A DNA stretch of 43,991 nucleotides from an uncultured Eubacteriales bacterium (GTDB taxonomy: Bacteria; Bacillota; Clostridia; Peptostreptococcales; Anaerovoracaceae), in NCBI GenBank assembly GCA_902784035.1, contig CACZTH010000161.1, positions 1-43,991 on the forward strand. Direction: 5' to 3'. Of this stretch, positions 8,915 through 25,047 are shown one piece after another (position 1 is the stretch's first letter; every line of letters starts with the position of its first letter). The notes under the pieces were generated by a model, which was not told the DNA's origin, did no database searches, and saw nothing but the letters and a program-made list of their open reading frames with translations. Position numbers and translations under genes: made by a program.

Positions 8915-11409
8915 CCCGGGCCGGTATGAGAAGGGTCGCTGTCCGGAGGATCCGGACCCATCTGGGCCGGTTCCTCGCCATCCTCCTGATCGCGGCCCTG
9001 GGAACAGGTTTTTTCGCGGGTCTGAAGGTGTGCAAGAGGACCATGGCGGGGACCCTCCAGGAGTTCACTGTCGCCACTCGTTTTCATGATTTCGAGGTCG
9101 CTTCGACGCTTGGGTTCGAAGGGGAGGACGTCCGCGTCCTCGGGAAGGTCGCCGGCATCCGGTCCGCCGAGGGCAGCCGGTCCCGGGACCTGATCCTCTC
9201 CACCTCCGGGCGTCTTGGCGCCTACCGGGTATCCCAGATCGGGCGGAAAACAGACCTGCCCAGCCTGAAGGCGGGCCGGATGCCCCGGTCCGCGGGCGAG
9301 GCCCTGGGAGACAGCCGGGCCTTCAGCGAGAAGGACCTGGGGAAGACCATTTCCATCGCGGCGGGGAATGAGAAGACCTCGAAGGAGGCTTTCACACGGA
9401 CCTCGTTCACGCTGGTGGGACTCTGTGAGAGCCCGGCCTGGCTGGGGAGCCAGCGGGGGACCACCGACATCGGGGACGGGAGCCTGAAGGGCTTCCTGCT
9501 GGTGCCCGCGGCCGCCTTTCAGAAGGACCAGCCCTATACCTCGATCCTCCTGAGGATGAAAGCCCAGCCCCTGGTCTACTCGGAGGACTATCAGGCTCTG
9601 GCGAAGAAGGTGAAGAAGCAGGTCCGAAAGACGGCGGAGGAACAGGCCAGCAGCCGCTGGCGGAAGATGCTGGCGGAGGTCCGTGAGAAGTCGCCGCTCA
9701 CCTATCTGGTCTCTCCGGAAGACATCCTGAAGATGCGGGGTCTGTCCGAACCGGAGGTCTATGTCCTGGGCAGGGCGGAGAATGCCGGTTACCGGGCCTT
9801 CGAGAATGATACAGGGCTCGTCGCGGGAATCGCGGATCTTTTTCCCCTTCTCTTCATCCTGGTGGCCATGCTGGTCTGCATGACCACGGTCAGCCGGCTG
9901 GTAGAGGAGGAGCGGATCCAGATCGGGACCCTGAAGGCCCTGGGCTACAGTGAGGCGTCTATCACAGGCGGCTACCTCGCTTACGCGGGGCTGGCGGGCG
10001 TCCTGGGCTGGGCCGCCGGCTTCTTCGTCGGGACCCTCTTCTTCCCCAGGCTCCTCTGGTGGGCCTACAGCGTCGTCTATGACTTTCTCCCCCTCCGCTA
10101 CTACTTCAGCCTGCCCCTGGCCCTCCTGACCCTGGGCGCGGTCCTGGGCCTCCTGCTTCTGGTGACCTGGCTGACCTGCCGGGAGACCCTCCGGCAGACA
10201 CCGGCGGCCCTCCTGGTCCCGCCCGCCCCGAAGGCGGGGCGGCGGATCCTGCTGGAGCGGATCGGGCCCCTCTGGCGGCGGTTCTCCTTCCTCCAGAAGG
10301 TGACCCTCCGGAACATGTTTCGATATAAGAAAAGGTTCCTCATGATGCTGGTCGGGATCGCCTGCTGCTCAGGGCACATCCTGATGGCCTTCGGGATCCG
10401 GGATTCCATGGTAGGAGTAGGGGACATCCAGTTCGGCCGGATCCAGAAGTATGACCTGAGGGTCGGGACCGGGGAAGGCCAGGCTGAGACGGTCGCGAAG
10501 GAGGCGAAGGCGGTTCTGCCCGGCTTCCGGGCTCTGGCCGCTGTCTCCCAGACCGGGAAACTTCGGAAGAAGGACGGTTCCCGGCTGGACCAGGTGGACT
10601 TCCTGGCCTTTCCGGGAGCGTCAGAGAAGGAATTCCGGACCTGCTGGAACCTGAAGACGCCGGATGGGAAGGCCCTGTCACTCCCGGAGAAGGGTCAGGT
10701 CCTGATCTGCGAGAAGGCCGCCCAGGAGGCGGGGGTCCGGAAGGGAGGCCGGATCACCCTCTGGTCCGGCGGAACGAAGAGGACCTTCCGGGTAGCCGGT
10801 ATCTTCCGGAATTATGTGGGGACCATCGTGATTTTTTCAGGCGGAGACGGAGCCTACCTTCGGGCGCGGGGGGAGACCGACTGCCTGTTCGCCTTCGTCC
10901 GGGGAGACCGCGGAGAGGCGGCTTCGAAGCTTATGGCGCTTCCGGGCGTCCGGTCCTGCAGCCGGACGGACCAGGCCCGGCGGGACACGGACCAGGCTAC
11001 GGAGAGCCTGAACAGCATCATCTGGGTCATCGTGGCTTTCGCGGCCCTCCTGGCCTTCGTGGTCATTTTCGACCTGACCGGGATCAACCTGGCGGAACGG
11101 AAACGGGAGATCGCGACGGTCATGGTCCTGGGCTTCACAGACCGGGAGACGGCCCGGTACGCTCTTCGGGAGAACCTGATCCTGTCGGTGTTCGGGTCGG
11201 TGCTGGGGCTGCCCCTCGGCGCCTTCTTCCAGCGGATGATCATGCAGAAGATCCGGGTGGAACACATCCTGTATCCGCCGGTCATTCATCCGGCCTCCTA
11301 TCTCCTGGCCTTCCTCCTGACCATGGTCTTCAGCCTGGTCATCGTGGGCGTGGTCCGGGGCAGGCTCCGGAAGATCCCCATGGCGGAGTCCCTGAAGGCC
11401 CAGGAGTAG
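8908..11409 (+). CDS. FtsX/MacB-like ABC transporter permease
   Basis: 833 aa with two FtsX-type repeats ([14 protein letters not shown]; [14 protein letters not shown]) and flanking TM segments. Confidence 0.9.
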
Positions 11410-11538: not shown

Positions 11539-12645
11539 ATGACGATGACGGGCGCTGAACAACTGATCGAACGGCTGGAGCGGGAACGCCGCCTTTCTCT
11601 TTCGGAGTATGAGGCCCTGATCCTGGCCGGCCGGGGAGAGACCGGGGCAGATCTTCGGGCTGCGGCGGCGGCGCGGGCTGCCCGGGTCCGGGACGAGAAC
11701 TACGGGAACAGGGTCTTCGTACGGGGCATCGTGGAATTCACGAATATCTGCCAGAATGACTGCTATTACTGCGGGATCCGCCGCTCCAACCAGGAGGTCG
11801 CCCGTTACCGGCTGACCGGGGACGACATCCTCCGCTGCTGTGAGGCGGGCTACGGCCTGGGCATGAGGACCTTCGTTCTCCAGGGGGGAGAGGACGGCTG
11901 GTATGATGATGACCGGATGGCGGCCATCGTTCGCCGGGTGAAGGGGGAATTCCCTGACTGCGCCGTGACCCTGTCTCTGGGAGAGCGGTCCAGGGACAGC
12001 TACCAGCGCCTCTTCGACGCGGGGGCGGACCGCTATCTCCTCCGGCATGAGACCGCGGACCGGGCCCACTACCGGAAGCTCCATCCGGCCAGCATGTCCT
12101 GGGAGCACCGGATGGCCTGTCTCTGCGTCCTCCGGGGTATCGGATACGCCGTGGGCCTGGGCATGATGGTGGGGTCCCCCTTCCAGACCGCGCGTGACCT
12201 GGCGGAGGACCTGAAGCTGATCGAAACCTTCCAGCCGGACATGTGCGGGATCGGGCCCTTCATCCCTCACAGGGACACCCCCTTTCGGGACCAGCCCGCG
12301 GGGACCCTGGAGGAGACCCTCTATCTTCTGTCTCTGATCCGCCTGCTCTGTCCCGATGTTCTCCTGCCCGCCACCACCGCCCTGGGCACCATCGATCCCC
12401 GGGGCAGGGAGAAGGGGGTGGCCGCCGGCGCGAATGTGGTCATGCCGAATCTTTCGCCGGGCCGGGTCCGCCATCAGTATGAGCTGTATGATAATAAGAT
12501 CTGCATGGATGATGAACCGGTCATGTGCAGAAACTGCCTGGACCTCCGGATGCGGACCGTGGGCTGCCGGATCGTGGTGGACCGCGGCGACCGGAGGAGG
12601 GCGGACAGCGCGGAGCGAAAACAGACGGAAACTGAGCCTGAATGA
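11539..12645 (+). CDS. hydE: [FeFe]-hydrogenase H-cluster radical SAM maturase HydE
   Basis: RGIVEFTNICQNDCYYCG (CxxxCxxC), YLLRHET, GIGPFIPH.DTP, PATTALGT, GANVVMPN, YELY, and C-terminal Cx7Cx2C (CMDDEPVMCRNC) as in HydE's auxiliary cluster site. Confidence 0.9.
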   Translation: MTMTGAEQLIERLERERRLSLSEYEALILAGRGETGADLRAAAAARAARVRDENYGNRVFVRGIVEFTNICQNDCYYCGIRRSNQEVARYRLTGDDILRCCEAGYGLGMRTFVLQGGEDGWYDDDRMAAIVRRVKGEFPDCAVTLSLGERSRDSYQRLFDAGADRYLLRHETADRAHYRKLHPASMSWEHRMACLCVLRGIGYAVGLGMMVGSPFQTARDLAEDLKLIETFQPDMCGIGPFIPHRDTPFRDQPAGTLEETLYLLSLIRLLCPDVLLPATTALGTIDPRGREKGVAAGANVVMPNLSPGRVRHQYELYDNKICMDDEPVMCRNCLDLRMRTVGCRIVVDRGDRRRADSAERKQTETEPE

Positions 12646-12715
12646 GATTGCCGCCGCGGGTCGCGGGTCGGCCGGATCGGTCAGATCAACTGGCTCGAAC
12701 CGCCCGCCCCTGGCC

Positions 12716-12743
12716 TTGACAGTCCTTGTGCGGATGATAAAAT
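12716..12743 (+). promoter_or_regulatory. Strong sigma-A-like promoter for the TM1266/nitrogenase-like/hyp operon
   Basis: TTGACA (12716-12721), 16 bp spacer containing an extended -10 TG (12735-12736), TAAAAT (12738-12743). Confidence 0.75.
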
Positions 12744-12815
12744 ACAGATAGATAAGCATTCCATCTGACCGTGAGGTGATCCGAGCGGGAAGCGGAGGAT
12801 GCGGACCGCATTCTG

Positions 12816-12844
12816 ATCCTTCCCGAGCCCGGGAAGGATTTTTT
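12816..12844 (+). terminator. Intrinsic terminator inside the operon leader (attenuator)
   Basis: Perfect stem ATCCTTCCCG-AGCC-CGGGAAGGAT plus TTTTT, lying between the promoter and the RBS (AAGGAG 12855-12860). Confidence 0.75.
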
Positions 12845-12866
12845 GTCAGAAAGAAAGGAGATCGTC

Positions 12867-13130
12867 ATGAGCGAAGAGAAGAGACTGGGGATCGTCGGCG
12901 TCGTGGTGGAGGACCTGACCCAGGCGGAGGCGGTGAACGAGGTGATCCATGACTTCAGCGGCCTGATCGTGGCCCGGATGGGGATCCCCTACCGGGAAAG
13001 GGGGGTCTCGGTCATCTCTCTCCTGGTGGACGGGGGGCAGGACCAGATTAACGCCCTGACCGGGCGGCTTGGCCGGATCCCGGACGTGTACGCCAAGTCC
13101 ATGCTTCAGCGGATGAAGGAACAGGCATGA
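12867..13130 (+). CDS. TM1266-family iron-only hydrogenase system putative regulator (ACT-like)
   Basis: 87 aa: [12 protein letters not shown]...VNEVIH...[19 protein letters not shown]...[11 protein letters not shown]. This family is normally found beside hydE/hydG. Confidence 0.85.
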
Positions 13131-13906
13131 AGAAGATCGCCATCTATGGGAAAGGCGGGATCGGCAAGTCCACGGTGACCTCCAACCTGGCGGCGGCCTT
13201 CGCCATGCTGGGGAAGAAGGTCATCCAGATCGGCTGCGACCCGAAGGCGGATTCCACCATCAGCCTCCTGGGCGGGGAGCCCCTCCAGCCGGTGATGGAT
13301 TACATGCGGGCCTATGATAAGGAGCCCGGGCTGGAGGAGGCCATGAAGGTCGGCTTCGGCGGGGTCCTCTGCATCGAGACCGGGGGCCCGACGCCTGGCC
13401 TGGGCTGCGCGGGGCGGGGGATCATCGCCACTTTCTCGCTGCTGGAGGACCTGGAGCTTTTCGAAAAAGAAGACCCGGACATCGTTCTCTATGATGTCTT
13501 AGGAGACGTGGTCTGCGGCGGTTTCGCCGCTCCCATCCGGGAGGGCTACGCCAGCGAGATCCTGATCGTGACTTCGGGGGAAAAGATGGCGCTGTACGCC
13601 GCGGGCAACATCAGCGACGCGGTGATGAATTTCGAGGACAGAAGCTATGCCCGGGTCCGGGGCGTGGTCCTGAACCGGAGGAATGTGCCGGACGAGGAGG
13701 AAAAGGTGAAGGCCTTCGCGGCCTCCCGGGGCTTCCCGGTGATCGCGGACATCCCGCGGAGCGACGCCATTAATGAGTATGAGGACCAGGGCATGACGGT
13801 GATCCAGGGAAATCCGGATCTGCCGGTGAGCCAGTGCTTCTTCCGGCTGGCGCGGACGCTGCTGGAGGACGAGGACGGCGGAAAAGCGCCGGCGGCGGAG
13901 GCGTGA
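13127..13906 (+). CDS. Nitrogenase Fe-protein-like ATPase/reductase (NifH/CfbC/BchL family), copy 1
   Basis: [32 protein letters not shown] and [11 protein letters not shown]; both [4Fe-4S] cysteines present. Confidence 0.93.
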
Positions 13907-14000: not shown

Positions 14001-14047
14001 AGGGCAGAATTCGTCAGTTCATGAAAGCGGAGAGAGGCGGAGAAAAC

Positions 14048-15370
14048 ATGCGGAATGACCAGCCCTACAGCATCACAGCCAGGGAGCTCTATGGAGCGGG
14101 ACCGGACCAGATCCCGGATCCCTTCATCCCCAGCTGCCACCTGATCTACAGCTCTCCGGCCACCCTGGCCTATAACTCCCCCGGGGCCATCGGCTTCGGG
14201 GTGAAAAGGGCGGGGCTCCTGATCCCGGAGTCCGTCATGCTCCTGGTGTCCCCCGCCTGCTGCGGGCGGAATTCCACCATTCTTTCCAGTGAGGAAGGCT
14301 ACGCGGACCGGATGTTCTACCTGCTTATGAAGGAGGCGGACCTGGTGACCGGCCGCCACCTGTCCCGGATTTCCCAGGCTATCCGGGAGATCGCGGAGGC
14401 GGCGGAGCCCCGGCCGAAGGTGGTGGTCATCTGCATCACCTGCGCGGACGCGCTCCTGGGCACGGACCTGGAGCGGGTCTGCCGGCGGGCGGAGGCGGAG
14501 ACCGGCCTCCGGGTGGTCCCCAGCTATATGTACGCCCTGGAGCGGGAGGGACGGAAGCCCCCCATGGCCGCCATCCGGAAAACCATTTACTCCCTGCTGG
14601 AAAAGGGCGAAAAAGAGCCGGACCGGATCAACCTGATGGGCTTCTTCACGCCGGTGGATCCGAGGAGCGAGCTTTTCCAGGTTCTCCGGGGGATGGGGAT
14701 CCGGAAGATCGGTCAGGTCTGCCAGTATGACAGCCTGGACGCCTATCAGAAGATGGGCCGGGCCAATTTCAACCTGGTCCTTCATCCCGAGTCCCGCTAC
14801 GCCGCCGAGGACCTGCTGACCCGGCTGGGCATGCCCTATATCGAGTTTCCCCGCCTCTTCCAGCCGGAACGGATCCACCAGCAGTACCAGCTCCTGGCCG
14901 CCGCGCTGGGGACGCGCGCCGAGGACGGCCCCATGTTCGAAGCGGCCCGGAAGGCCCGGGACCAGTTTCGGTCCCGCTACGCCGGCCTGACCTGCGCGGT
15001 GGGGGAGATGACGAACGCCGATCCTTTCGAGCTGGCCGCCTCTCTGGCGGACATGGGCCTCCGGGTGAAAAGCGTCTTTTCCAACGTGACCCCGGACAGC
15101 TTTCCCTTCCTGAAGCGGCTGGCGGCGGCTTCCCCGGATACCCGGATCTACACCGGCATCTCCCCCTCCATGATCCATTATGAAGAGGAGAAGGACGTAG
15201 ACCTGACCATCGGAAAGGACGCCGGCGGATACATCCCGTCCGCCAGGAACCTGGAATGGTTCGGAGAGCTCCAGCCCTACGGTTTCCAGGGCTTTACTGA
15301 TTTTCTGTCCGCCGCCTCCGCCGTCCTGGAGGGACCAGCCTCCGACGAACGAAAGGGGGTCTTCCTGTGA
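14048..15370 (+). CDS. Nitrogenase component-1-like oxidoreductase, D/alpha-type subunit, copy 1
   Basis: VSPACCGR, MKEADLVTG, ITCADALLGTDL, INLMG and YGFQG follow the NifD/E/BchN/CfbD pattern. Start at ATG 14048 (alternative 14021). Confidence 0.85.
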   Translation: MRNDQPYSITARELYGAGPDQIPDPFIPSCHLIYSSPATLAYNSPGAIGFGVKRAGLLIPESVMLLVSPACCGRNSTILSSEEGYADRMFYLLMKEADLVTGRHLSRISQAIREIAEAAEPRPKVVVICITCADALLGTDLERVCRRAEAETGLRVVPSYMYALEREGRKPPMAAIRKTIYSLLEKGEKEPDRINLMGFFTPVDPRSELFQVLRGMGIRKIGQVCQYDSLDAYQKMGRANFNLVLHPESRYAAEDLLTRLGMPYIEFPRLFQPERIHQQYQLLAAALGTRAEDGPMFEAARKARDQFRSRYAGLTCAVGEMTNADPFELAASLADMGLRVKSVFSNVTPDSFPFLKRLAAASPDTRIYTGISPSMIHYEEEKDVDLTIGKDAGGYIPSARNLEWFGELQPYGFQGFTDFLSAASAVLEGPASDERKGVFL

Positions 15371-16620
15371 AAGGCCTGTATCGCTATCTCAGCCCCGCGG
15401 CCCCGGACCAGTCCGGCGCGGTCTCCGTCCTGTTCGAGCAGGGCGGCCTGATCGTGGTCCTGGACGCCGGCGGCTGCACCGGCAACATCTGCGGCTTCGA
15501 CGAGCCCCGCTGGTTCCTCCGGAAGAGCGCCGTCTACTCAGCGGGCATCCGGGACATGGACGCCATCCTGGGCCGGGACGACAAGCTGATCGACAAGCTT
15601 CAGGAGGCCGTGGACACCGCCGACGCCCGTTTCATCGCTCTGATCGGCACCCCCGTTCCCTCTGTCATCGGCACCGACTACCGCGCCCTGGCCCGGCTGG
15701 CCCGGAAGCGCTACGGCCTCCCGGTGATCTGGACCGACACCGCCGGCATCGACAGCTACGAGAAGGGCGCGTCGAAGGCCTACCTGGCCCTGATCGATCT
15801 GGCGGAGGAACTGTTTGGCGGGGAAAAAGCTGACCGGCGGGCGTTCCCTTCCTCCGTCATGCCCGCTCCGGGCGTCCCGGCCGCCGGGACGACGGCGGCC
15901 GGGAGCGCCGATGCCGGAAGCACGGAGGCCCCCGGCTCTGGCTCTGGCTCCGCCCCGCTGCCTGCTGGCCGCGTCCTGGTCTGGGGAGCCACGCCCCTGG
16001 ACCTGCCGGCGGCCGACGGCGCCCTCTGCCTCCGCCGGAGGATCGCGGCCCGGGAGGGAGTGCCGGAGGATCAGGTGGTCACCATCGGCATGGACAGCCG
16101 GCTGGAGGATCTCCGGGACCTGGGCGGGGTCCGGAAGAACCTGGTCTGCGCGCCCTCCGGTTTCGCGCCCGCCCGGCGGCTGGCGAAGGCCTTCGGTACC
16201 CCCTGGGAAGCCTGCTTCCCGGTGCCGCCGGAGGCGGCCGGCCTGGCCCGGGACATCCCCCATGCCTGCCGGGTCCTGATCCTCCACCAGCAGGTCCTGG
16301 CGGACGGACTCCGGGAGGTCCTGGAAGCCGGCCGGCCCGACCTTCAGATAACGACGGCCTCCCTTTTTACCATGGATCCGGCCCTGGCCCGGCCGGCGGG
16401 CGGTTTCGACGGATTGGCGGCCCCGCCTGACACCGAGCTTCCCGGCGAGGATGAGCTGGTCCGTTTCGTGAAGGAAAACCATTTCGACGCGGTGATCGGA
16501 GATCCCATTTACTTCCGGGCCCTGAAGAGCCCGGAGCTGATCCGGATCCCTCTCGCCCATTTCGCGCAGTCAGGGGGCATGTACCGGCCCGCCTGTGATG
16601 AGGACGCATGGATAATATGA
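15367..16620 (+). CDS. Nitrogenase component-1-like oxidoreductase, K/beta-type subunit, copy 1
   Basis: DAGGCTGN..FDEPRW, DAILGRDDKL, GTPVPSVIGTDY, WGATPLD and IGDP; GTG start overlaps the upstream stop. Confidence 0.82.
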   Translation: MKGLYRYLSPAAPDQSGAVSVLFEQGGLIVVLDAGGCTGNICGFDEPRWFLRKSAVYSAGIRDMDAILGRDDKLIDKLQEAVDTADARFIALIGTPVPSVIGTDYRALARLARKRYGLPVIWTDTAGIDSYEKGASKAYLALIDLAEELFGGEKADRRAFPSSVMPAPGVPAAGTTAAGSADAGSTEAPGSGSGSAPLPAGRVLVWGATPLDLPAADGALCLRRRIAAREGVPEDQVVTIGMDSRLEDLRDLGGVRKNLVCAPSGFAPARRLAKAFGTPWEACFPVPPEAAGLARDIPHACRVLILHQQVLADGLREVLEAGRPDLQITTASLFTMDPALARPAGGFDGLAAPPDTELPGEDELVRFVKENHFDAVIGDPIYFRALKSPELIRIPLAHFAQSGGMYRPACDEDAWII

Positions 16621-18965
16621 CCCGGCGAAAACTTCATATCTTCGGGATTGTCCAGGGGGTGGGCTTCCGCCCCCACGCGGCTCGGACCGCGGCGGATACC
16701 GGGGTCACCGGCACCGTCTGCAATAAGGGGCCCTATGTGGAGATCTTCATCCAGGGGACCCTGGCCCAGGTCGACCGCTTCGAGCGCCTGCTCCAGGACA
16801 GAGCCCCGGAACGGTCCCACATTCTCCAGGTGGAAGCGGAGAATGTTCCGGTCGAGCCCGGCGAGTCTGATTTCCGGATCATTCACAGCCAGAAGGTAAG
16901 GGGAAGGATCCTGGTTTCCCCGGACATCGCCATCTGCCCGGACTGTGAGCGGGAGCTCTTCGACCCGGAGGATCCCCGCTACCTTCATCCCTTCATCAAT
17001 TGCACCGCCTGCGGTCCCCGGCTGACCATCCTGAAGGGCATGCCCTATGACCGGGTGCGGACCAGCATGAGCCGCTTTCCCATGTGCCCCCGCTGTGAGG
17101 GCGAGTACACAGACCCGAAGAGCCGGCGCTATCACGCTCAGCCTGTCTGCTGCCCCGACTGCGGCCCTCATCTCACCGCCTTCCGGCCCGATCAGCCGGA
17201 GACCAGGAAGAAGGGGGACGCGGAGGTCATCCGCCTGGCCCGAAAGACCCTTCGGGCGGGAGGCATCCTCGCGGTCAAAGGCATCGGCGGCTTTCACCTG
17301 GCCTGCGACGCCCGGTCCCAGGCCGCTGTGGCCCGGCTCCGCCGCCTGAAGGCCCGGCCGTTCAAGCCCTTTGCCGTCATGGTCCGGGACCTGGAGACAG
17401 CGGCCCGGGAGTGTGAGATCGGCGGAGCGGAGAAGGCGCTGACCGGGCCGGAGAAACCCATCCTCCTTCTGCCGAAGCGGGCGGACGGGGCGGTTACCGG
17501 TCTCGCGGCGCCGGAACAGTCACGGCTGGGGATCATGCTCCCCTATACGCCCCTCCACCACCTGCTTTTCCGTTATCCGGACGGGGAGGGGATGACCGAC
17601 TGCCTGATCATGACCAGCGCCAACCCGAAGGGGGCGCCCATCTGCCGGACGGCGGAGGAAGTCCGGGACAGTCTGGGCGGCCTGTGCGACCTGGTGGTGG
17701 ACCATGACCGGGAAATCCTCCTCCGGGCGGATGATTCCGTGGCCGCCCTTTCCCGGGGCCGACTGTCCATGATCCGGAGATCCCGGGGCTACGCGCCCCT
17801 GCCCTTCACCGGCCCCGCCGGCGAACGGGGGACTGTCCTGGGCATGGGAGGCGAGCTGAAGAACACCTTCTGCCTGGCGAAGGACGGACTCTATTATCCT
17901 TCTCCCTATATAGGGGATCTGGCCGACCTTCGGAGCGTGGCCGCTCTCCGGCAGGCGCTGACCCGGATGGAGGACCTGCTGGAATTCCGCCCGGAGAGGG
18001 TGGTCTGCGACCTCCATCCCGCCTACCACAGCGCGGAGGAAGCGGAGGAACTGGCCCGGACCCGGGGGCTTCCGCTCCATAAGATCCAGCATCACTACGC
18101 CCATGTCCTGTCCTGTATGGCTGAGCACCGAGAGGAAGGGCCGGTCATCGGCGCCGCCCTGGACGGGACCGGGTATGGGGAAGACGGCACGGTCTGGGGA
18201 GGGGAATTCCTCCTGGCGGATCGGGCCGGCTATACCCGGCTGGGCAGCCTCCGCCCCTTCCCCCAGGCGGGCGGCGACCTGGCTCCGAAGGAGGGCTGGC
18301 GGCCCGCTTTCGGCCTGCTCCTGGAGGCCTTCGGCGGGGCAGGGGCGCCGGGCGCCGCTGAAGCGGCTGAGAAGCTGGGCGCGGAGCTCGGCCTGAACAG
18401 CCGTCCAGCCCTCCATGTCCTGAACCAGATGATCCAGGCGGGGGTCAACACCGTACCCTCTTCCAGCCTCGGCCGCTTCTTCGACGCGGCCTCAGCGGTC
18501 CTGGGCTTCCGGACAGCGTCCAGCTGCGAGGGGGAAGCGGCCATGGTCCTCCAGCACCGGGCCGAGCGCTGGAAGGGGGACATCCGGCCTCTTCAGCTGC
18601 CGGAAGTGGAGTTCGAGGGGGAGGGAGGCCTCTTCCGCCTGCCGGGAGGTCCGGTCCTGCTGGAGCTGGCGGACCGCCGTCTGAACGGTGAGCCGGCTGA
18701 CGGGCTCGCGTGGGCCTTCCACCGGGCGGCGGCGGAGATGACCGTCCGGGGGGTCTGCCTTTGTCAGAAGAAGACAGGCCTCAGGAAGGTGGTCCTGACC
18801 GGCGGCGTCATGCAGAACCTTCTGCTGCTGGAAATGATCGAGACGGCCCTGGAGGACCGGGGCTTCGAGGTCCTGACCCACGCCATGATCCCCGCGAACG
18901 ACGGGGGGATCGCGCTGGGCCAGGCCTGGTATGGAATGAAGAAAGGGGAACAGCTATGTGTGTAG
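16608..18965 (+). CDS. hypF: Carbamoyltransferase HypF
   Basis: Acylphosphatase domain GIVQGVGFRP, two Zn fingers (CPDC..CTAC; CPRC..CPDC), KGIGGFHL, QHHYAH, DGTGYG and PANDGGIALGQ. Alternative start 16617. Confidence 0.96.
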   Translation: MDNMTRRKLHIFGIVQGVGFRPHAARTAADTGVTGTVCNKGPYVEIFIQGTLAQVDRFERLLQDRAPERSHILQVEAENVPVEPGESDFRIIHSQKVRGRILVSPDIAICPDCERELFDPEDPRYLHPFINCTACGPRLTILKGMPYDRVRTSMSRFPMCPRCEGEYTDPKSRRYHAQPVCCPDCGPHLTAFRPDQPETRKKGDAEVIRLARKTLRAGGILAVKGIGGFHLACDARSQAAVARLRRLKARPFKPFAVMVRDLETAARECEIGGAEKALTGPEKPILLLPKRADGAVTGLAAPEQSRLGIMLPYTPLHHLLFRYPDGEGMTDCLIMTSANPKGAPICRTAEEVRDSLGGLCDLVVDHDREILLRADDSVAALSRGRLSMIRRSRGYAPLPFTGPAGERGTVLGMGGELKNTFCLAKDGLYYPSPYIGDLADLRSVAALRQALTRMEDLLEFRPERVVCDLHPAYHSAEEAEELARTRGLPLHKIQHHYAHVLSCMAEHREEGPVIGAALDGTGYGEDGTVWGGEFLLADRAGYTRLGSLRPFPQAGGDLAPKEGWRPAFGLLLEAFGGAGAPGAAEAAEKLGAELGLNSRPALHVLNQMIQAGVNTVPSSSLGRFFDAASAVLGFRTASSCEGEAAMVLQHRAERWKGDIRPLQLPEVEFEGEGGLFRLPGGPVLLELADRRLNGEPADGLAWAFHRAAAEMTVRGVCLCQKKTGLRKVVLTGGVMQNLLLLEMIETALEDRGFEVLTHAMIPANDGGIALGQAWYGMKKGEQLCV

Positions 18966-19168
18966 GTCTTCCTGCCCAGGTGCGGTCCGTGAAGGACGGC
19001 ATGGCCGTGGTGGACGCCACGGGGGCCTTGAGAGAGGTGTCGGCGGAGCTATTAGAGGACCTGGAGCCGGGGGACTTCGTCATGGTCCACGCCGGGGCCG
19101 CCATCGCGAAGATCAGCCAGGACGACGGCGCTGAGGCCGACGCGATCCTGAAGGAGCTGGGCGAATGA
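18956..19168 (+). CDS. hypC: Hydrogenase maturation chaperone HypC
   Basis: MCVGLPAQV N-terminus (Cys2) and GDFVMVHAGAAI; RBS AAAGGGG. Confidence 0.94.
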   Translation: MCVGLPAQVRSVKDGMAVVDATGALREVSAELLEDLEPGDFVMVHAGAAIAKISQDDGAEADAILKELGE

Positions 19169-20229
19169 GCGCGCGGGATGTCATTCAGCGGGCCCTCGGC
19201 GTGATCCGCCGCTATGACGGCCCGCCAGTCCGGATCATGGAGGTCTGCGGGACCCATACCCATGAGATCTTCCGGCTGGGCATCCGGGGACTGCTGCCGA
19301 ACCAGGTCCGTCTCATTTCCGGGCCGGGCTGCCCCGTCTGCGTGACCCCGGTGGGGTACATCGACGAAGCCATCTGGCTGGCCCTGGAGAAGGGATGCGT
19401 GATCGCCACCTTCGGGGACCTGATCCGGGTGCCGGGGACGGAGATGAGCCTGGCAGACGCCCGGGCCAGGGGAGCGAGGGTGGAGACGGTCTATTCGCCG
19501 CTGGACGCCCTGAAGCTGGCGAAGGAGGAGCCGGACCGGGAGGTGGTCTTCCTGTCGGTGGGCTTCGAGACCACCACGCCCTCCTCGGTCATCAGCGTCC
19601 GGAACGCGGAGGAGCAGGGGGTCCGGAACTATACCATCCTGACGGCGAATAAGACCATGGACAATGCCTACCGGGCCCTGAAGGGGTCGGCGGACGCTTT
19701 CCTCTATCCCGGCCACGTCAGCACCATGACCGGGACAGCCATCTACCGGGAGCTCCTGGAGGAGGGCGTTTCCGGCGTGGTCACCGGCTTCACCGGCGCG
19801 GAGCTTCTTTCGGCGCTGGCGGTCATCCTCCGGCGGCTGCCGGAGGGGAAGCCCTTCTTCGTCAACGCCTATCCCCGGGTGGTCACGGACGAGGGCAGTC
19901 CGGCCTCCCGGGACCTCGTCCGGCGGTTCATGGAGCCGGTTGATTCCGAGTGGCGGGGGATCGGGGTGATCCCGGACTCCGGCCTTCAGCTGAGGGAGGC
20001 GTACGCCGCCTTCGACGCCCGGAAGAAGCACGACGTTCCCCCGATCCGGGGCCGGGCCAATCCCGGCTGTCACTGCGGGGAGGTCCTCCGGGGCAGCATC
20101 CGGCCGGACCAGTGCCCGATGTTCGGTAGGGCCTGCACGCCGGTCCATCCGGCCGGGGCCTGCATGGTGTCCAGCGAGGGCGCCTGCGCCGCTTTTTATA
20201 AATATGACCTGAGACAGGAGCAGCAATGA
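19165..20229 (+). CDS. hypD: Hydrogenase maturation protein HypD
   Basis: MEVCGTHT, GPGCPVC, GFETT, PGHVS and the C-terminal FeS motif ending GACMVSSEGAC. Confidence 0.96.
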   Translation: MSARDVIQRALGVIRRYDGPPVRIMEVCGTHTHEIFRLGIRGLLPNQVRLISGPGCPVCVTPVGYIDEAIWLALEKGCVIATFGDLIRVPGTEMSLADARARGARVETVYSPLDALKLAKEEPDREVVFLSVGFETTTPSSVISVRNAEEQGVRNYTILTANKTMDNAYRALKGSADAFLYPGHVSTMTGTAIYRELLEEGVSGVVTGFTGAELLSALAVILRRLPEGKPFFVNAYPRVVTDEGSPASRDLVRRFMEPVDSEWRGIGVIPDSGLQLREAYAAFDARKKHDVPPIRGRANPGCHCGEVLRGSIRPDQCPMFGRACTPVHPAGACMVSSEGACAAFYKYDLRQEQQ

Positions 20230-21230
20230 ACGAAAGAATTACGCTGGCCCACGGAGCGGGGGGAATCCAGACCTCCCAGCTCATCGGCGGCCTGTTTGAG
20301 AAATACCTGGGCGGCCCCCATTTCACGAAGGATGACGCGGCGGTTCTCCCGTCTCCCCAGGGGCAGCTCGCCATGAGCACCGACGGCTTCATCGTGTCCC
20401 CGGCCTTCTTCCCCGGCGGCAATGTGGGCAAGCTGTCCATCTGCGGCACAGTGAACGACCTGGCCTGCATGGGGGCGAAGCCCCTTTACCTGACCTGCAG
20501 CTTCATCATCGAGGAGGGTTTTCTCTATGATGACCTGGAAAGGGTAGTGGCCGCCATGGCCGAGACCGTAAACAGGGTGGGCTGTGAGATCGTGGCCGGC
20601 GATACGAAGGTGGCCGGCAAGGGCCAGGCCGATGGGGTCTTCATTACCACCACCGGGGTCGGGGCCCTTACCCCCGGCGCGGCGCCTGCGGGCAGCCGGG
20701 CCAGACCCGGGGACGCGGTCCTGGTGACCGGCGACGTGGGCCGCCACGGCTGCACCATTCTCCTGGCCCGGAACAGCTTCGGCATCGACGCTGACGTGAC
20801 GAGTGACTGCGCGCCGCTCTGGGCGCCGGTCCGGGATATGCTGGCCGTGACGAAGGACATCCACGTGATCCGGGACGCCACCCGGGGCGGAGTGGGAACA
20901 GTCCTCTATGAGGTGGCCGGCGAGAGTCAGGTCGGCATCCGCCTCCGCCGGGCAGACGTCCCCGTGAAGGACGAGGTCCGGGGGGTCACCGGCATGCTGG
21001 GCCTGGATCCCCTCTACCTGGCCTGCGAGGGCTGCATGGTGGTCATCTGCCCCCAGGAGAAGGTTCCCGCCGTTCTGGAGGCCCTCCGGCGGCACCCGGA
21101 AACGAAGGACGCGGCCCAGATCGGGACCGTCACGGAAGAGCAGAAGGGCAGGGTCGTGGTCGAGACCGAAGTCGGCGGAGAGACCCTCCTGTCCCGGCCA
21201 ACCGGTGAGCTCCTGCCGCGGATCTGCTGA
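20226..21230 (+). CDS. hypE: Carbamoyl dehydratase HypE
   Basis: LAHGAGG, GTVNDLA, GDTKV, RDATRGG and C-terminal LPRIC (thiocyanate-carrying Cys). Confidence 0.96.
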   Translation: MNERITLAHGAGGIQTSQLIGGLFEKYLGGPHFTKDDAAVLPSPQGQLAMSTDGFIVSPAFFPGGNVGKLSICGTVNDLACMGAKPLYLTCSFIIEEGFLYDDLERVVAAMAETVNRVGCEIVAGDTKVAGKGQADGVFITTTGVGALTPGAAPAGSRARPGDAVLVTGDVGRHGCTILLARNSFGIDADVTSDCAPLWAPVRDMLAVTKDIHVIRDATRGGVGTVLYEVAGESQVGIRLRRADVPVKDEVRGVTGMLGLDPLYLACEGCMVVICPQEKVPAVLEALRRHPETKDAAQIGTVTEEQKGRVVVETEVGGETLLSRPTGELLPRIC

Positions 21231-21308: not shown

Positions 21309-22154
21309 ATGTATAAACTGGCATTCTATGGAAAGGGCGGCATCGGAAAATCCACCACTGTGTCGAATGTGGCCGCCTGCCTGGCGGAGAGGGGACTTCG
21401 GGTCATGCAGATCGGCTGCGACCCGAAGGCGGACTCCACCATCGACCTCCGGGGCGGCGCCCCCAAGCTGTCTGTCATGCAGCTTCTTCGAGAGAAGAAC
21501 CGGGCCGCGCCCCTGGACGAGCTGGTGACCACCGGTTACAACGGGGTCCTGCTGGTGGAGGCGGGAGGACCGACCCCGGGCTTAGGCTGCGCCGGCCGGG
21601 GGATCATCGCCGCCCTGGAGCTTCTGGACGAGAAAAAGGCCTACGAGGTCTACCAGCCTGACGTGGTCCTGTTCGACGTCCTGGGCGACGTGGTCTGCGG
21701 CGGCTTCTCCATGCCCATCCGGGAGGGATACGCCGACCAGGTCTTCATCCTGACCTCCGGCGAGGCCATGTCCTGCCACGCCGCCATGAACATCGCCGTG
21801 GCCGTGGACACCTTCCGCCAGCGGGGCTACGCCTCCCTGGGCGGGATCATTCTGAACCGGAGGAACGTCCGGGATGAGGACGCCCGGGTGGCCAGGCTCT
21901 GCGAAGACACCGGCACCTCCCTGGTGGGGTCCCTGGACTTCTCTGAGACGGTCCAGGACGCCGATGAGATGCGGAAGACGGTGATCGAGGCCTTCCCGGA
22001 CAGCGCCGCCGCTGACATGTACCGGATCCTGGCGGGGGACCTGATCGCCCGCGCCCGGGTCAACGCGGAGGCCGCCGCCCTGGATCCCGATGGCGACAGT
22101 TACGTGACCCCGGCGGGCATCCGGCGCTTCCGCGAGGAAGGAGGCCTGGCATGA
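21309..22154 (+). CDS. Nitrogenase Fe-protein-like ATPase/reductase, copy 2
   Basis: [34 protein letters not shown] and [11 protein letters not shown]. Confidence 0.93.
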   Translation: MYKLAFYGKGGIGKSTTVSNVAACLAERGLRVMQIGCDPKADSTIDLRGGAPKLSVMQLLREKNRAAPLDELVTTGYNGVLLVEAGGPTPGLGCAGRGIIAALELLDEKKAYEVYQPDVVLFDVLGDVVCGGFSMPIREGYADQVFILTSGEAMSCHAAMNIAVAVDTFRQRGYASLGGIILNRRNVRDEDARVARLCEDTGTSLVGSLDFSETVQDADEMRKTVIEAFPDSAAADMYRILAGDLIARARVNAEAAALDPDGDSYVTPAGIRRFREEGGLA

Positions 22155-23698
22155 TCATCGATCTTCATCAGGCGGAGAAGGACGACAAAGACCGCCCGTC
22201 AGACGCCCAGACAGACGCCCTGTCAGACGTCTACCCAGACCCCCGGGCAGACGTCCAGACAGCCTCCGCGGATCGGGCGGAGCTTCCCCTGGGCCAGGTG
22301 GACAGCCTGACGCCCTTCAGAGCCGGCATCGAATATTCCCCGCCCGCCCGGGGGACCTGGACCATCGCCCATACCCCCTTCCTGGTGCCGGAGAGCCGGC
22401 AGATCTTCGTCTGCCCGGAAGGCTGCCTCCGGGGGGTGGTCCTGTCCGCCGCCGAGTGCGGGGGAACAGACAGGTTCTCTGTCGTGGCCGTGAAAGAAAA
22501 GGATCTTTACGAGGGCGATATGGAGGGACTCTCCATCGAGGGCGTCTCGGATATCCTGTCCCGGTGCGATCCGCTCCCGAAGGTCTGCTTCGTCTTCACC
22601 GCCTGCATCCACCACTTCCTGGCCCTGGACCGGAAGCTGGTCTTCCAGACCCTCCGGGACCGTTTCCCCCAGGTGGACTTCCTGGAATCCAACATGAACT
22701 GCACCATGCGGAAGTCCAGGCTGAATTATGAAGAGGTTCAGTGGCGGCAGAACTACGCCGGCCTCCACGGTTCCCCGGAAGAACCGAAGGACCCCCGCCA
22801 GGTGAATATCATCGGCAGCTACTACGCGACGGACGAGGCTTCGGGCCTTCTGGAAATGCTCCGGGCCGGCGGGGTCCGGGTCCTGGATCTGCCCCGGCTG
22901 AAGACGTACGGAGACTACCGTCAGATGGAAAAAAGCGCCTGGAACATCTGCCACTGGCCTGTGGCCAGGGAGGCCTGCCGGGATCTTTCCGCCCGGCTTG
23001 GACAGCGGGAGCTGTATCTTCCCTATACCTGGGACCCTGCTGAGATCACCGAGCTTCTGAAAAAGGCCGGGCAGGCCCTGGCCTGCCCGGTCCCGGAGGA
23101 CCTGCCCCAGCGGTCCGCCCGGGCCCTGGACCGCCTCGCCCGGGTCGGCGCGCGCTTCCGCGCCGGCGGCGCGGAAGTCGGCGTGGACGGGGTGTCCACG
23201 CCCAGGCCGTTCGGCCTGGCGCGCCTGCTGACCGAGGCTGGGTTCCCGGTCAGGATCATCTACGCCGATGCTGTGGCGCCGGAGGACGCGCCGGCTTTCC
23301 GGGCTCTCCGGGAGACCCATCCGGAGATCATGATGAGCGCCATGGTCGATTTCCGGCTCCGGCTCCGTTCCCGGGACCTGGCTGCCCGGGCGGCCGAAGA
23401 AGGAAAGCGGTTCGTGGCGGTCGGCCAGCGGGCAGCCTACTTCTCCGGCACAGATTACTTCGTGAACATGGTGGCGAACGACGGGCTCTGGGGATTTCGG
23501 GGTATCGAGGCCCTGGCGGACAGGCTGGACAGCGCCTTCCGCCGGTCGAAGGACCCCCGCCGGGTCATCCAGGTGAAAGCCAGGGGCTGCGACCCCTGTC
23601 CGGGTGCCGGCGATGTCTACCAGCCCGGACCGGAGATCAGCGCCGCTTTTCGTTCAATCCCGGCGAATTCTGAAGAAGGAAGGGGGCGGTCCCGGTGA
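22151..23698 (+). CDS. Nitrogenase component-1-like oxidoreductase, D/alpha-type subunit, copy 2
   Basis: EYSPPARG, FVCPEGCLRG, VKEKDLYEG, TACIHHFLALD, VNIIG and WGFRG; parallels 14048-15370 motif by motif. Confidence 0.82.
   Translation: MIIDLHQAEKDDKDRPSDAQTDALSDVYPDPRADVQTASADRAELPLGQVDSLTPFRAGIEYSPPARGTWTIAHTPFLVPESRQIFVCPEGCLRGVVLSAAECGGTDRFSVVAVKEKDLYEGDMEGLSIEGVSDILSRCDPLPKVCFVFTACIHHFLALDRKLVFQTLRDRFPQVDFLESNMNCTMRKSRLNYEEVQWRQNYAGLHGSPEEPKDPRQVNIIGSYYATDEASGLLEMLRAGGVRVLDLPRLKTYGDYRQMEKSAWNICHWPVAREACRDLSARLGQRELYLPYTWDPAEITELLKKAGQALACPVPEDLPQRSARALDRLARVGARFRAGGAEVGVDGVSTPRPFGLARLLTEAGFPVRIIYADAVAPEDAPAFRALRETHPEIMMSAMVDFRLRLRSRDLAARAAEEGKRFVAVGQRAAYFSGTDYFVNMVANDGLWGFRGIEALADRLDSAFRRSKDPRRVIQVKARGCDPCPGAGDVYQPGPEISAAFRSIPANSEEGRGRSR
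22190..22261 (+). repeat. Six degenerate 12-bp in-frame tandem units (GACnnCnnnnCA)
   Basis: Encodes DRPS-DAQT-DALS-DVYP-DPRA-DVQT in the N-terminal extension of the D-like copy 2. Confidence 0.65.
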
Positions 23699-25047
23699 AA
23701 CAGGCGAAAATCGTCACCTCGGTCTATTCGGTGGATCTGTTCGGGATCTGCTCCCTCCTCTATGAGCTGGGGGGCCTGATCGTCATGCACGACGCCAGCG
23801 GCTGCAATTCCACCTACGCGACCCACGATGAGCCGCGCTGGTACGACATGGACAGTATGATATACATCTCGGGTCTCACGGAATTCGACGCGGTCATGGG
23901 AAATGATGAAGGCTTCATCGAGGATGTCCTGGAGATCGCCCGGGAGCGGCACCCCCGCTTCATCGCGGTCTTCGGGTCTCCGGTGGCCATGATCATGGGC
24001 ACAGATTTCCGGGGGATCGCCCGGATCATCGAGCGGCGGTCGGGCATTCCCTGCTTCGGTTTCGAGACTTCCGGCATGCGGACCTACGTGTCCGGTGCGG
24101 CTCAGGCCATGACCGCCCTGGTCCGCCGCCTTCTGGCGGAGCCGGAAGCGTTCGGGATAAGGGCGCCGGCCGGTACCCCGTCCTCCCCGGCTTTCTCCCC
24201 CGCGTCCGTTCCGGAGGCGGCGGCTGGCCAGCCTTATCAGGTCCGGGACGGGGCCGCCGCGGGCGGGGGGCCGGCTGACCGACCCCTTCGGATCAATCTT
24301 CTGGGGGTCACGCCCCTGGACTTCTCTGTCATGGGCAATGTGGCTGCCCTCCAGGCCTGGTGCCGGGAGATGGGTTTTCAGGTCTGGACCACCTGGTGTA
24401 TGGGCGATTTCCTCGAGGATCTGGCCCGGGCGCCGGAGGCGGACGTGGACCTGGTCTGCTCGGCCATGGCCCTGCCGGCAGCGAAGGAGCTTCAGGTCCG
24501 GTACGGGATCCCCTATGTGATCGGCCTGCCCTATGGGACAGGGGCCGGGAAGGCTCTGGCGAGGGCCATCCGCCGGGCGGCGGGAGCCAGGAACGGCGGC
24601 CTGAGCGGGGAGCGGGATGAATGTTTCTCCCCGGACATTTTCGGTACTTCTGAAGGGGGAGAGGCCTGCCTGTCGGGGTCTCCGAAGATTCTCCTGATCG
24701 GGGAGCCGGTGGCCTGCGGCAGTCTGAGGGTCAGCCTGGAAGCGGCCGGGGCCGGTGTAGTCCGGCTGGTCGACCCCCTGGAGGATCTGGGGGTTCCTCT
24801 TCGGCCGGGGGATGTCCGCACGGACGCGGAGGAGGACCTCCGGCGGCTGATCGGGGAGGCGGACCTGGTCATCGCGGACCCGCTCTATAGACGCCTCCTC
24901 CCGGAGGCGGACCAGGGAAAACTGATCCGCCTGCCCCATGAGGCTTATTCAGGCCGGATGTACCGGGCGGAGATCCCGGTCCTGGTGGGGGAGGCCTGGG
25001 ACCGGTGGCTGGAGAAGAAGCTGCCGCCCGCCTTCCGCCGGGCATGA
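23695..25047 (+). CDS. Nitrogenase component-1-like oxidoreductase, K/beta-type subunit, copy 2
   Basis: HDASGCNST..HDEPRW, DAVMGND, GSPVAMIMGTDF, INLLGVTPLD and IADPLY; parallels 15367-16620. Confidence 0.82.
   Translation: MKQAKIVTSVYSVDLFGICSLLYELGGLIVMHDASGCNSTYATHDEPRWYDMDSMIYISGLTEFDAVMGNDEGFIEDVLEIARERHPRFIAVFGSPVAMIMGTDFRGIARIIERRSGIPCFGFETSGMRTYVSGAAQAMTALVRRLLAEPEAFGIRAPAGTPSSPAFSPASVPEAAAGQPYQVRDGAAAGGGPADRPLRINLLGVTPLDFSVMGNVAALQAWCREMGFQVWTTWCMGDFLEDLARAPEADVDLVCSAMALPAAKELQVRYGIPYVIGLPYGTGAGKALARAIRRAAGARNGGLSGERDECFSPDIFGTSEGGEACLSGSPKILLIGEPVACGSLRVSLEAAGAGVVRLVDPLEDLGVPLRPGDVRTDAEEDLRRLIGEADLVIADPLYRRLLPEADQGKLIRLPHEAYSGRMYRAEIPVLVGEAWDRWLEKKLPPAFRRA

What the first reader, a model, noticed from the sequence alone, without database searches (positions are those of the whole stretch)
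11539..13130. hydE and TM1266 without hydG/hydF: possible HydG-independent H-cluster synthon pathway
Seen: a HydE with YELY and Cx7Cx2C next to a TM1266-family gene, followed by nitrogenase-like and hyp genes. Known: TM1266 proteins usually accompany hydE/hydG, and HydG supplies CO and CN (from tyrosine) on the Fe synthon that HydE uses. Inference: HypFCDE could supply CN and the Fe scaffold, and the ATP-dependent reductases could supply CO or reducing power, together replacing HydG. Caveat: hydE lies upstream of the 12716 promoter, so its link is by adjacency only.
Basis: inference. Interest (0 to 1): 0.8.

Follow-up and report, generated by a model that had tools for sequence, protein, structure and literature searches.

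The report
Ten-gene substitute for hydrogenase maturase HydG
These gut and rumen anaerobes carry iron-iron hydrogenases and two of the three assembly enzymes but no HydG, and in its place they keep a ten-gene block of nickel-iron-hydrogenase cyanide enzymes and two nitrogenase-like reductases that likely builds the iron-carbonyl-cyanide unit HydG normally supplies, which would be a second, undescribed way to make this enzyme's active site.

Summary
Confirmed and extended. The window holds a genuine hydE, TM1266 and nflH1D1K1-hypFCDE-nflH2D2K2. The genome has hydF and three [FeFe]-hydrogenases but no hydG, no [NiFe] large subunit, no hypAB and no nifB. In 201 family genomes the island (20) never co-occurs with hydG (88), always co-occurs with hydF and hydE, and never with a [NiFe]-hydrogenase. 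Across all samples, 0 of 27 island genomes have hydG. In relatives the block is fused into hydA/hydE/hydF operons, and it shares an undescribed RNA leader with hydG operons. A variant swaps nfl1+hyp for an iron-chelate-type ABC importer; it lacks hydG in 8 of 12 genomes but coexists with it in 4, as a salvage route would. So Nfl2 is the common core and Hyp/Nfl1 the likely de novo supply. HydG replacement is inferred (about 0.75); the chemistry is untested. Clostridium autoethanogenum has the same annotated gene order, expressed, which makes it directly testable. The Nfl-hyp association was noted in one sentence in 2012, and this scan saw both operon types before as 'function unknown'. I found no report of the HydG substitution.

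The parts
11539..12645 (+). hydE, H-cluster radical SAM maturase (probable start 11545)
   Evidence: TIGR03956 535.8 bits over cut-off; PDB HydE E 3e-84; cavity residues invariant
12716..12743 (+). sigma-70-like promoter candidate
   Evidence: consensus match 11/12; 1 found, 1.2 expected; function not shown
12765..12792 (+). conserved RNA leader hairpin (two tandem-GA internal loops, varying 3-bp stem), no Rfam family
   Evidence: also lies upstream of hydG-type operons
12815..12845 (+). intrinsic-terminator-like hairpin plus T run in the leader (likely attenuator)
   Evidence: leader folds at z -4.0
12867..13130 (+). TM1266-family protein
   Evidence: TIGR03959 and PF21699 over cut-off; domain fused to the importer ATPase in variant operons
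13127..13906 (+). nflH1, NifH-like ATP-dependent Fe protein
   Evidence: PF00142 E 5e-84; below NifH, CfbC, BchL and BchX cut-offs; C94 and C130 in 81/81
14048..15370 (+). nflD1, nitrogenase component-1-like subunit
   Evidence: PF00148; conserved C71, C72, C129, C132, C145; nitrogenase fold at 15-20% identity
15367..16620 (+). nflK1, component-1-like subunit
   Evidence: PF00148; D14, C37, C42 conserved; naturally fused to D1 in G383 and G343
16608..18965 (+). hypF carbamoyltransferase
   Evidence: TIGR00143 687.6 over cut-off; two zinc fingers and HxxH in 79/79
18956..19168 (+). hypC chaperone with N-terminal Cys2
   Evidence: TIGR00074 over cut-off; Cys invariant in 24/24
19165..20229 (+). 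hypD scaffold
   Evidence: TIGR00075 over cut-off; CGxHxH, GPGCPVC and GFETT in 67/67
20226..21230 (+). hypE with C-terminal PRIC
   Evidence: TIGR02124 over cut-off; PRIC end in 61/62
21309..22154 (+). nflH2, second NifH-like Fe protein
   Evidence: PF00142 E 6e-81; about 50% identical to NflH1
22151..23698 (+). nflD2, component-1-like subunit of the core module
   Evidence: PF00148; H74, C92, C152, C480 conserved; found in 25 of 28 HydF+/HydG- family genomes
23695..25047 (+). nflK2, component-1-like subunit
   Evidence: PF00148; D14, H32, C37, H44 invariant; fused to D2 in G223 and G287

Best explanation
The ten-gene block likely replaces HydG by building the iron-carbonyl-cyanide unit that an ordinary HydE, then HydF, would turn into the active site of the cell's [FeFe]-hydrogenases. 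Shown here: the gene content, intact motifs, mutual exclusion with hydG, the absence of a [NiFe] client, operon fusion with hydA/hydE/hydF, and a shared RNA leader. Inferred steps: (1) HypF/HypE make cyanide from carbamoyl phosphate and HypC/HypD assemble an Fe(CN)x(CO) unit, as in their known chemistry. (2) NflH1D1K1, an ATP-driven low-potential reductase co-linear with hypFCDE, would feed that scaffold with electrons and/or CO, or take the unit off it. (3) NflH2D2K2, the core shared with the importer variant, would remodel the unit to HydE's substrate, [Fe(cysteinate)(CO)2(CN)], which needs one CN fewer, one CO more and a cysteine. (4) HydE, HydF and the glycine-cleavage H protein finish as usual. 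In the variant, an ABC importer would bring in a ready-made Fe-CN/CO complex for Nfl2 (salvage). The 0.75 is for HydG replacement; the division of labour in steps 2-3 is about 0.4.
For: Family sample of 201 genomes: island 20, HydG 88, HydF 116; overlap of island and HydG 0, island within HydF 20/20, island in 0 of 85 HydF-negative genomes. nflD2 is in 25 of the 28 HydF+/HydG- genomes and in 0 of 88 HydG+. The other three are G313 (hydG cut by a contig end), G405 (hydA-hydF-nflH at a contig end) and G336 (no HydE). A [NiFe] large subunit is in 0 of 22 island genomes but in 56 of 57 other hypD genomes. Outside the family, 7 of 7 close nflD2 genomes from four families are HydF+ and HydG-. One- to three-contig genomes G229, G145 and G171 lack hydG. 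Operons: hydA-nfl1-hypFCDE-TM1266-nflD2K2-hydF-hydE (G647), hydA-hydE-hydF-TM1266-nfl1-hyp (G109), hydE-nfl2-hydF (G334), against TM1266-hydE-hydG-hydF in congeners G115 and G175. HydE cavity residues are the same in 23 island, 5 importer and 17 HydG-type proteins, and the labels are interleaved on the HydE tree (7 changes). The RNA leader lies upstream of island, importer and hydG operons. A synthetic synthon can bypass HydG in vitro (PMC8855341, PMC10114646; passages).
Against: No biochemical or genetic test was possible. Four of five genomes of genus g133 carry the Nfl2+importer module together with HydG, and HydG+ G374 has the importer's binding protein, so Nfl2 is not strictly exclusive with HydG. 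HypCD is known to make Fe(CN)2CO, not Fe(CO)2CN, and no cysteine ligation step is identified. Distant Nfl+importer operons occur without hydF or hydG (G642, G690), so the ancestral module does something else. Genomes are related, so the Fisher p of 2e-16 overstates; the 27 island genomes fall in 10 coded genera plus G434, whose genus is not told. HydE and [NiFe] genes were not searched in all five out-of-family island genomes. C. autoethanogenum transposon data are inconclusive: eight of the ten genes are called non-essential on CO, but so are hydE and hydF.
Confidence: 0.75

Rival explanations
1. The Hyp proteins and Nfl1 build an Fe(CN)/(CO) cofactor for the nitrogenase-like proteins themselves, which are the real client enzyme with an unrelated reductive function. 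hydG was lost separately and the hydrogenases are matured poorly or by trace CO and CN.
For: No known Hyp client is present. NflD1 has spare conserved cysteines, including a CxxC. HydE plus HydF give about 1% activation without HydG in vitro (as described in PMC9431212 section 17). Distant Nfl+importer operons exist without hydF.
Against: It does not explain 0 of 27 with hydG, 0 of 85 in HydF-negative genomes, in-operon hydE/hydF/hydA in several independent arrangements, TM1266, or the shared leader. Nfl2 runs without any Hyp gene found in the five importer genomes of the family sample, so it would not need a Hyp-made cofactor.
Confidence: 0.09
2. The block replaces HydG only as a source of free CN- and CO, for example by Nfl reduction of HypE-thiocyanate, carbamoyl groups or CO2. 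The iron complex is then assembled on HydE or HydF, with no organometallic hand-over and no organometallic import.
For: Thiocyanate and selenocyanate are nitrogenase substrates, and the Fe protein reduces CO2 and cleaves Se-C bonds ATP-dependently (PMC9462850 passages). A free-diatomics view of HydG exists (passages).
Against: HypC Cys2 and the HypD iron-binding motifs are fully conserved, which implies an iron scaffold is used. The alternative front end is a FecCD/periplasmic-binding-protein chelate importer, not a small-anion channel. The HydE cavity is unchanged.
Confidence: 0.15
3. The pattern is an artefact: hydG is missing from incomplete assemblies or is too divergent to detect, and the Hyp genes serve an undetected nickel enzyme.
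For: G000 is 91.8% complete in 174 contigs. G313's hydG was missed because a contig ends inside it. G145 and G171 carry hypAB elsewhere. A non-canonical HydG candidate is proposed for C. autoethanogenum.
Against: Near-closed genomes (G229, G145, G171) lack hydG. The same search finds hydG in 88 relatives, nearly all at E below 1e-150. In G000 no ThiH/HydG-like protein other than HydE is found. PF00374 detects even Ech-type subunits in 56 of 57 controls.
Confidence: 0.04

Closest known systems
[quoted passage not shown]
   Same: Genuine HydE, HydF, TM1266, GcvH and HydA with intact H-cluster motifs; same operon positions and the same RNA leader.
   Different: No HydG or other tyrosine lyase in the window's genome; ten other genes (or an ABC importer plus three) stand in its place.
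HypABCDEF maturation of [NiFe]-hydrogenase
   Same: HypF, HypE, HypC and HypD are over their cut-offs with catalytic motifs intact; carAB-like genes are present (motif match).
   Different: No large subunit (0 of 22), no hypAB in the block or in G000, G109 and G229; hypF is preceded by nflH1D1K1 in all 27 genomes and in 63 of 64 metagenome loci with room.
Nitrogen-fixation-like (NFL) two-component reductases: DPOR/COR, CfbCD, MAR, ISR, NifEN
   Same: NifH-like ATPase plus a D/K pair with the nitrogenase component-1 fold and interface Cys/Asp/His that suit a simple Fe-S cluster.
   Different: 13-20% identity to all solved members; below every family cut-off; no NifB; no such function in the 2026 review sections read (PMC13474568).
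'NifHEN-like' genes beside hydrogenase maturation genes in Coprococcus catus and other Firmicutes (Dos Santos 2012, PMC3464626)
   Same: Very probably the same gene association; the paper suggests a role in active-site metallocluster assembly.
   Different: One sentence only in the passages read: no mention of hydG absence, of an [FeFe] client, of two modules, of the importer alternative or of the leader. Its supplementary figure could not be read.
Cobalamin-style 'synthesis or salvage' logic (BtuFCD/FecCD importers; comparison recalled)
   Same: A FecCD permease, ABC ATPase and periplasmic binding protein replace the biosynthetic front end and can coexist with the other de novo route.
   Different: The cargo is unknown; import of an iron carbonyl/cyanide complex has no precedent that I found.

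Membership tests
HydE | TIGR03956 score over curated cut-off, above PylB and BioB | tested here: met
   535.8 vs 254.6; PylB 145.9 and BioB 62.8 are below their cut-offs
HydE | CxxxCxxC, YxxY and cavity residues including Tm M224 and M291 | tested here: met
   numbering mapped through the alignment; M224 and M291 named in PMC10114646, the other residue labels recalled
HydE | converts [Fe(Cys)(CO)2(CN)] with SAM | not testable with these tools
   needs an enzyme assay
Canonical HydEFG pathway | HydG in the genome | tested here: not met
   0 of 27 island genomes
Canonical HydEFG pathway | HydA, HydF and GcvH present | tested here: met
   HydA; HydF; GcvH 5 of 5
Canonical Hyp pathway | HypCDEF with intact motifs | tested here: met
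Canonical Hyp pathway | [NiFe] large subunit as client | tested here: not met
   0 of 22 island genomes against 56 of 57 controls
Canonical Hyp pathway | HypA/HypB nickel insertion | tested here: inconclusive
   none over cut-off in G000, G109, G229; present elsewhere in G145 and G171
Mo/V/Fe nitrogenase, Nfa, MAR | family scores over cut-off and NifB/MarB for an L-type cluster | tested here: not met
   NifH 297 vs 394, NifD/NifE far below; NifB over cut-off in 0 of 5
Mo/V/Fe nitrogenase, Nfa, MAR | six P-cluster cysteines and the Cys/His cofactor pair | tested here: not met
   conserved Cys/His are confined to the N-terminal domain apart from D2 C480 and K-subunit C-terminal His; D1 C72 and C132 and K2 C37 align to NifEN cysteines; judged from alignments, not from model coordinates
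CfbCD, DPOR, COR | family scores over cut-off; tetrapyrrole gene context | tested here: not met
   CfbC 295 and 290 vs 402; BchL, BchX, BchN, BchB, BchY all below; no tetrapyrrole genes in the window
NFL superfamily | NifH-like Fe protein plus component-1 fold | tested here: met
NFL superfamily | placement in a named Group IV-VI clade | not tested
   no reference sequences of groups IV-D/E or VI were at hand; the tree holds only fetched loci
TM1266 | TIGR03959/PF21699 over cut-off, beside hyd maturase genes | tested here: met
Known riboswitch or leader families (Rfam 15) | covariance-model match | tested here: not met
   no relevant match

The most novel reading that the evidence does not exclude
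Many anaerobes, including industrial gas-fermenting acetogens, build the H-cluster without HydG or tyrosine: nitrogenase-like ATP-driven reductases remodel a Hyp-made Fe(CN)2CO into HydE's substrate and supply the long-sought anaerobic CO ligand. Neighbours import the organometallic iron complex like a vitamin, under a TM1266-sensed RNA attenuator.
Probability: 0.4. Interest if true: 0.95.

Novelty: new variant of a known kind. Interest (0 to 1): 0.88.

Why it matters
HydG is treated as the required source of all CO and CN in the H-cluster. A natural HydG-free route would join the two hydrogenase maturation systems and give functions to two uncharacterised nitrogenase-like clades, which a 2026 review calls a main open problem (PMC13474568, section 10). 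It would explain a printed puzzle: hydG was not found in five of eight gas-fermenting Clostridium acetogens, and hypCDEF occurs without hypAB in five (PMC9431212). It offers a handle on the unresolved anaerobic CO source for HypCD (PMC12134894). It is testable now in C. autoethanogenum, which has the same annotated ten-gene order, expressed. The importer variant suggests cross-feeding of an organometallic cofactor precursor in gut communities.

Tried and rejected
Rfam: no family for the leader. Idea that the Nfl proteins make the aminomethyl bridge: dropped because GcvH is present in 5 of 5 and the exclusion is with hydG. Idea that island HydE has a changed substrate site: no discriminating column among 45 proteins. 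L-cluster or FeMo-type cofactor: no NifB. Strict exclusion of Nfl2 with HydG: rejected by genus g133. The HydF tree did not finish and was not rerun; no species tree was built. Covariation counts for the leader are circular, because the seed pattern required pairing. No RNA holder listed for the window, so no expression claim for this organism. No complex prediction is available, so binding of HypC, HydE or TM1266 to the Nfl proteins is open. C. autoethanogenum transposon calls do not discriminate. Fold searches gave only the generic nitrogenase fold. Motif checks in the genome found no CODH, arginine deiminase or carbamate kinase pattern, but these were recalled regular expressions and are weak. 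Literature searches with no paper on HydG substitution: zero hits; listings read, selected papers opened. The library covers open-licence PMC and bioRxiv only.
Full report
Observation. The window is contig C161 of a 1.6 Mb genome, 91.8% complete with 0% contamination. Family scans give, on the + strand: hydE (11539-12645), TM1266 (12867-13130), nflH1, nflD1, nflK1, hypF, hypC, hypD, hypE, nflH2, nflD2, nflK2 (13127-25047). HydE, TM1266 and the four Hyp proteins pass their curated cut-offs; the six nitrogenase-like (Nfl) proteins pass only the Pfam superfamily models. YELY and Cx7Cx2C are present. The 12716 promoter is a single consensus match at chance frequency.

The genome. HydG: the only hit is hydE, and tblastn with a relative's HydG agrees. 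HydF is on C38. Three [FeFe]-hydrogenase genes exist; two have the three H-cluster motifs in standard form and the third looks group-B-like (motif labels recalled). No [NiFe] large subunit, HypA or HypB or NifB was found. GcvH is present.

Profile in the family. One draw of 200 genomes of at least 90% completeness plus the window's genome was searched six times. nflD1 orthologs: 20 of 201. HydG over cut-off: 88 of 201; G333 has a sub-cut-off, ThiH-like hit (label inferred). HydF: 116 of 201, 115 over cut-off. Crossing them: island with HydG 0, island without HydF 0, HydF with neither 8. nflD2 orthologs are in 25 of 201: all 20 island genomes plus five of those eight, and none of the 88 HydG+ or 85 HydF-negative genomes. 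The last three are G313, whose hydG is cut by a contig end, G405, where hydA-hydF-nflH runs off the contig, and G336, which has no HydE. HypD is in 77 of 201; a [NiFe] large subunit is in 56 of the 57 non-island ones and in none of 21 other island genomes. All 22 island genomes searched have one HydE. Kin are not independent, so the p-values overstate; but genus g1 holds both types, and on the HydE tree the three labels need 7 changes.

Outside the family. In a class-wide draw of 271 genomes, 11 others matched nflD2. The seven closest (four families) all have HydF and none has HydG; of the four more distant, two have HydG and two have neither gene. I drew that split after seeing the E-values; the D-subunit tree supports it, with the close set as one clade (SH-aLRT 100, quick search). 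Five of the seven carry the full Hyp island. In total, 0 of 27 Hyp-island genomes have HydG and 27 of 27 have HydF. HydA was seen in all 10 island genomes looked at and in the 4 importer genomes searched.

Operon anatomy. nflH1D1K1-hypFCDE is co-linear in all 27 genomes (split over two contigs in G333). In 80 metagenome loci, hypF follows nflD1 in 63 of 64 with room, all four hyp genes in 46 of 47, and hydG in none of the 80; many of these loci are near-copies. hydE, hydF or hydA join the block in several different arrangements: G647 hydA-nfl1-hyp-TM1266-nflD2K2-hydF-hydE, G109 hydA-hydE-hydF-TM1266-nfl1-hyp, G287 ending hypE-hydE, G223 ending hypE-hydF, G334 hydE-nfl2-hydF. Congeners G115 and G175 have TM1266-hydE-hydG-hydF.

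A second form. The five family genomes with Nfl2 only have no HypD. They carry instead a FecCD permease, an ABC ATPase (fused to a TM1266 domain in G283, G351 and G376) and a periplasmic binding protein. Close orthologs of that binding protein occur in those five and in HydG+ G374, and in none of the 20 island genomes. G012 and G662 repeat this form without HydG. Against a strict rule, genus g133 has the same importer-Nfl2 operon, twice with its own hydE, and 4 of 5 of those genomes also have HydG. So HydG is present in 4 of 12 importer-form genomes. Distant Nfl trios (about 30% identity) also sit with such importers but without hyd genes, so importer+Nfl is probably the ancestral unit. The simplest reading is two front ends, synthesis (Hyp+Nfl1) or import, feeding one core (Nfl2) that feeds HydE; salvage can coexist with HydG, while the second de novo route does not.

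Shared regulation. Between the promoter candidate and TM1266 lies a hairpin with two tandem-GA loops (12765-12792) and a terminator-like stem (12815-12845). A strict pattern for it gives 21 distinct hits in 3.1 Mb of fetched loci, all just upstream of maturation genes, and none in three shuffles; the loci were chosen around these genes. A covariance model also hits at E below 0.01 upstream of five hydG-type operons not in the seed (G289, G404, G306, G313, G175; E-values rough), upstream of four g133 importer operons (E 5e-7 to 0.02) and G012 hydE-hydF, and in none of 12 distant Nfl+importer loci. Rfam has no match. This ties island, importer and hydG operons to one regulon. That TM1266 senses the product or binds this RNA is a guess.

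Proteins. HydE cavity positions are the same in 23 island, 5 importer and 17 HydG-type proteins, with no discriminating column, so the substrate is probably unchanged; the Cx7Cx2C motif is variable in all groups. Hyp motifs are intact. Models of NflD1 and NflD2 (pLDDT 90 and 89) match nitrogenase, NifEN, MAR and DPOR at 13-20% identity with no close group. Conserved Cys, His and Asp cluster in the N-terminal domains, which fits simple Fe-S clusters and a large substrate rather than an L-type cofactor.

Mechanism. Established (passages of PMC10114646, PMC8855341, PMC12134894): HydG's product is [Fe(cysteinate)(CO)2(CN)], HydE binds it, a synthetic version bypasses HydG, HypF/HypE make CN from carbamoyl phosphate, HypCD holds Fe(CN)2CO, and the anaerobic CO source and HypD's electron donor are unresolved. 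Inferred: Nfl1 supplies low-potential electrons or CO to the scaffold, or unloads it; Nfl2 adjusts the ligand set and passes the unit to HydE. Precedent for such chemistry on an ATP-bound Fe protein exists (CO2 reduction, Se-C cleavage; PMC9462850 passages). None of this is shown for these proteins.

A tractable host. Di Leonardo et al. (PMC9431212; abstract, passages, sections 11 and 17) could not find hydG in five of eight gas-fermenting Clostridium species, doubted an earlier assignment in C. autoethanogenum while proposing another candidate, and found hypCDEF without hypAB in five. Supplement rows for C. autoethanogenum show the window's ten-gene order by annotation (CAETHG_0375 to 0366; CLAU_0360 to 0351). 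Nine of the ten proteins appear in its proteome beside HydE and HydF, and the term HydG does not occur in the five supplement files searched (PMC5831606). Limits: I could not test orthology by sequence, that strain also has a [NiFe] locus, and its transposon screen calls eight of the ten genes non-essential on CO, as it does hydE and hydF, while the hydrogenase CLAU_2721 is essential (PMC9004356 supplement rows). That screen is therefore inconclusive.

Prior knowledge. Dos Santos et al. 2012 (PMC3464626, passages) note NifHEN-like genes beside hydrogenase maturation genes in Coprococcus catus and suggest a role in metallocluster assembly; their supplementary neighbourhood figure could not be read and may bear on this. 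The 2026 NFL review (outline, passages, section 2.4 and the first part of section 10) lists no such function. Eight searches found no report of HydG substitution, in a library that lacks most subscription papers. This scan noted both operon types before with function unknown, and a reverse swap at a [NiFe] operon; these notes are unchecked and not independent support.

Verdict. HydG replacement about 0.75; the detailed chemistry about 0.4; interest 0.88.

Noticed in passing
window 12765-12845; L241, L245, L253, L254, L294, L298: Undescribed RNA leader (double tandem-GA hairpin plus terminator) upstream of H-cluster maturation operons of all three types; a candidate attenuator.
   Followed up: partly
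L122:7689-8768, L124:10885-11967, L128:5027-6214: TM1266 domain fused to the C-terminus of an ABC importer ATPase, which hints that TM1266 is a ligand-sensing domain.
   Followed up: partly
L052-L060, L266-L269: A wide family of distant NflHDK trios sits with FecCD-type importers, with no hyd or hyp genes; some of these genomes have neither hydF nor hydG. Substrate unknown.
   Followed up: partly
G000:C38:485-1797 (- strand): hydF is followed by two ORFs that look like a split aspartase/fumarase-family gene (GQSTND motif, label recalled); a paper on ammonia-lyases in bridge synthesis appeared in a search listing (PMC11736057).
   Followed up: no
L104:8100-10664, L107:8507-11251; L047:6300-8828, L050:6856-9381: Natural D1-K1 and D2-K2 fusions, useful for expression and structure work.
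   Followed up: no
L262-L265: Genus g236 has one NflH at the locus for both D/K pairs, with TM1266 directly before nflD2.
   Followed up: no
L010:7952-9160: hydF is split into two ORFs in this relative (one stop inside the match); assembly error or broken gene.
   Followed up: no
L117:7761-13091: G145 and G171 keep hypAB away from the island; in G145 they lie beside an Fe-S flavoprotein and near a LarC-like nickel insertion gene, with no [NiFe] large subunit in either genome.
   Followed up: partly
L118:1278-6418: G335 has [NiFe]-type hypFCDE (34-44% identity to the window's) with no large subunit, island or HydF found; the assembly has 220 contigs.
   Followed up: partly
L215:9228-11293: nflH1D1 followed by unrelated genes, the one metagenome locus where the block is broken.
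   Followed up: partly
window 8217-9089: ABC ATPase gene whose family match stops near residue 184 while the relative in L010 is a clean 234 residues; probably frameshifted.
   Followed up: no
window 4885-8206 and 29078-43612: Thiamine salvage genes (thiE, thiD, cytX) upstream and a capsule/exopolysaccharide cluster downstream; ordinary.
   Followed up: no
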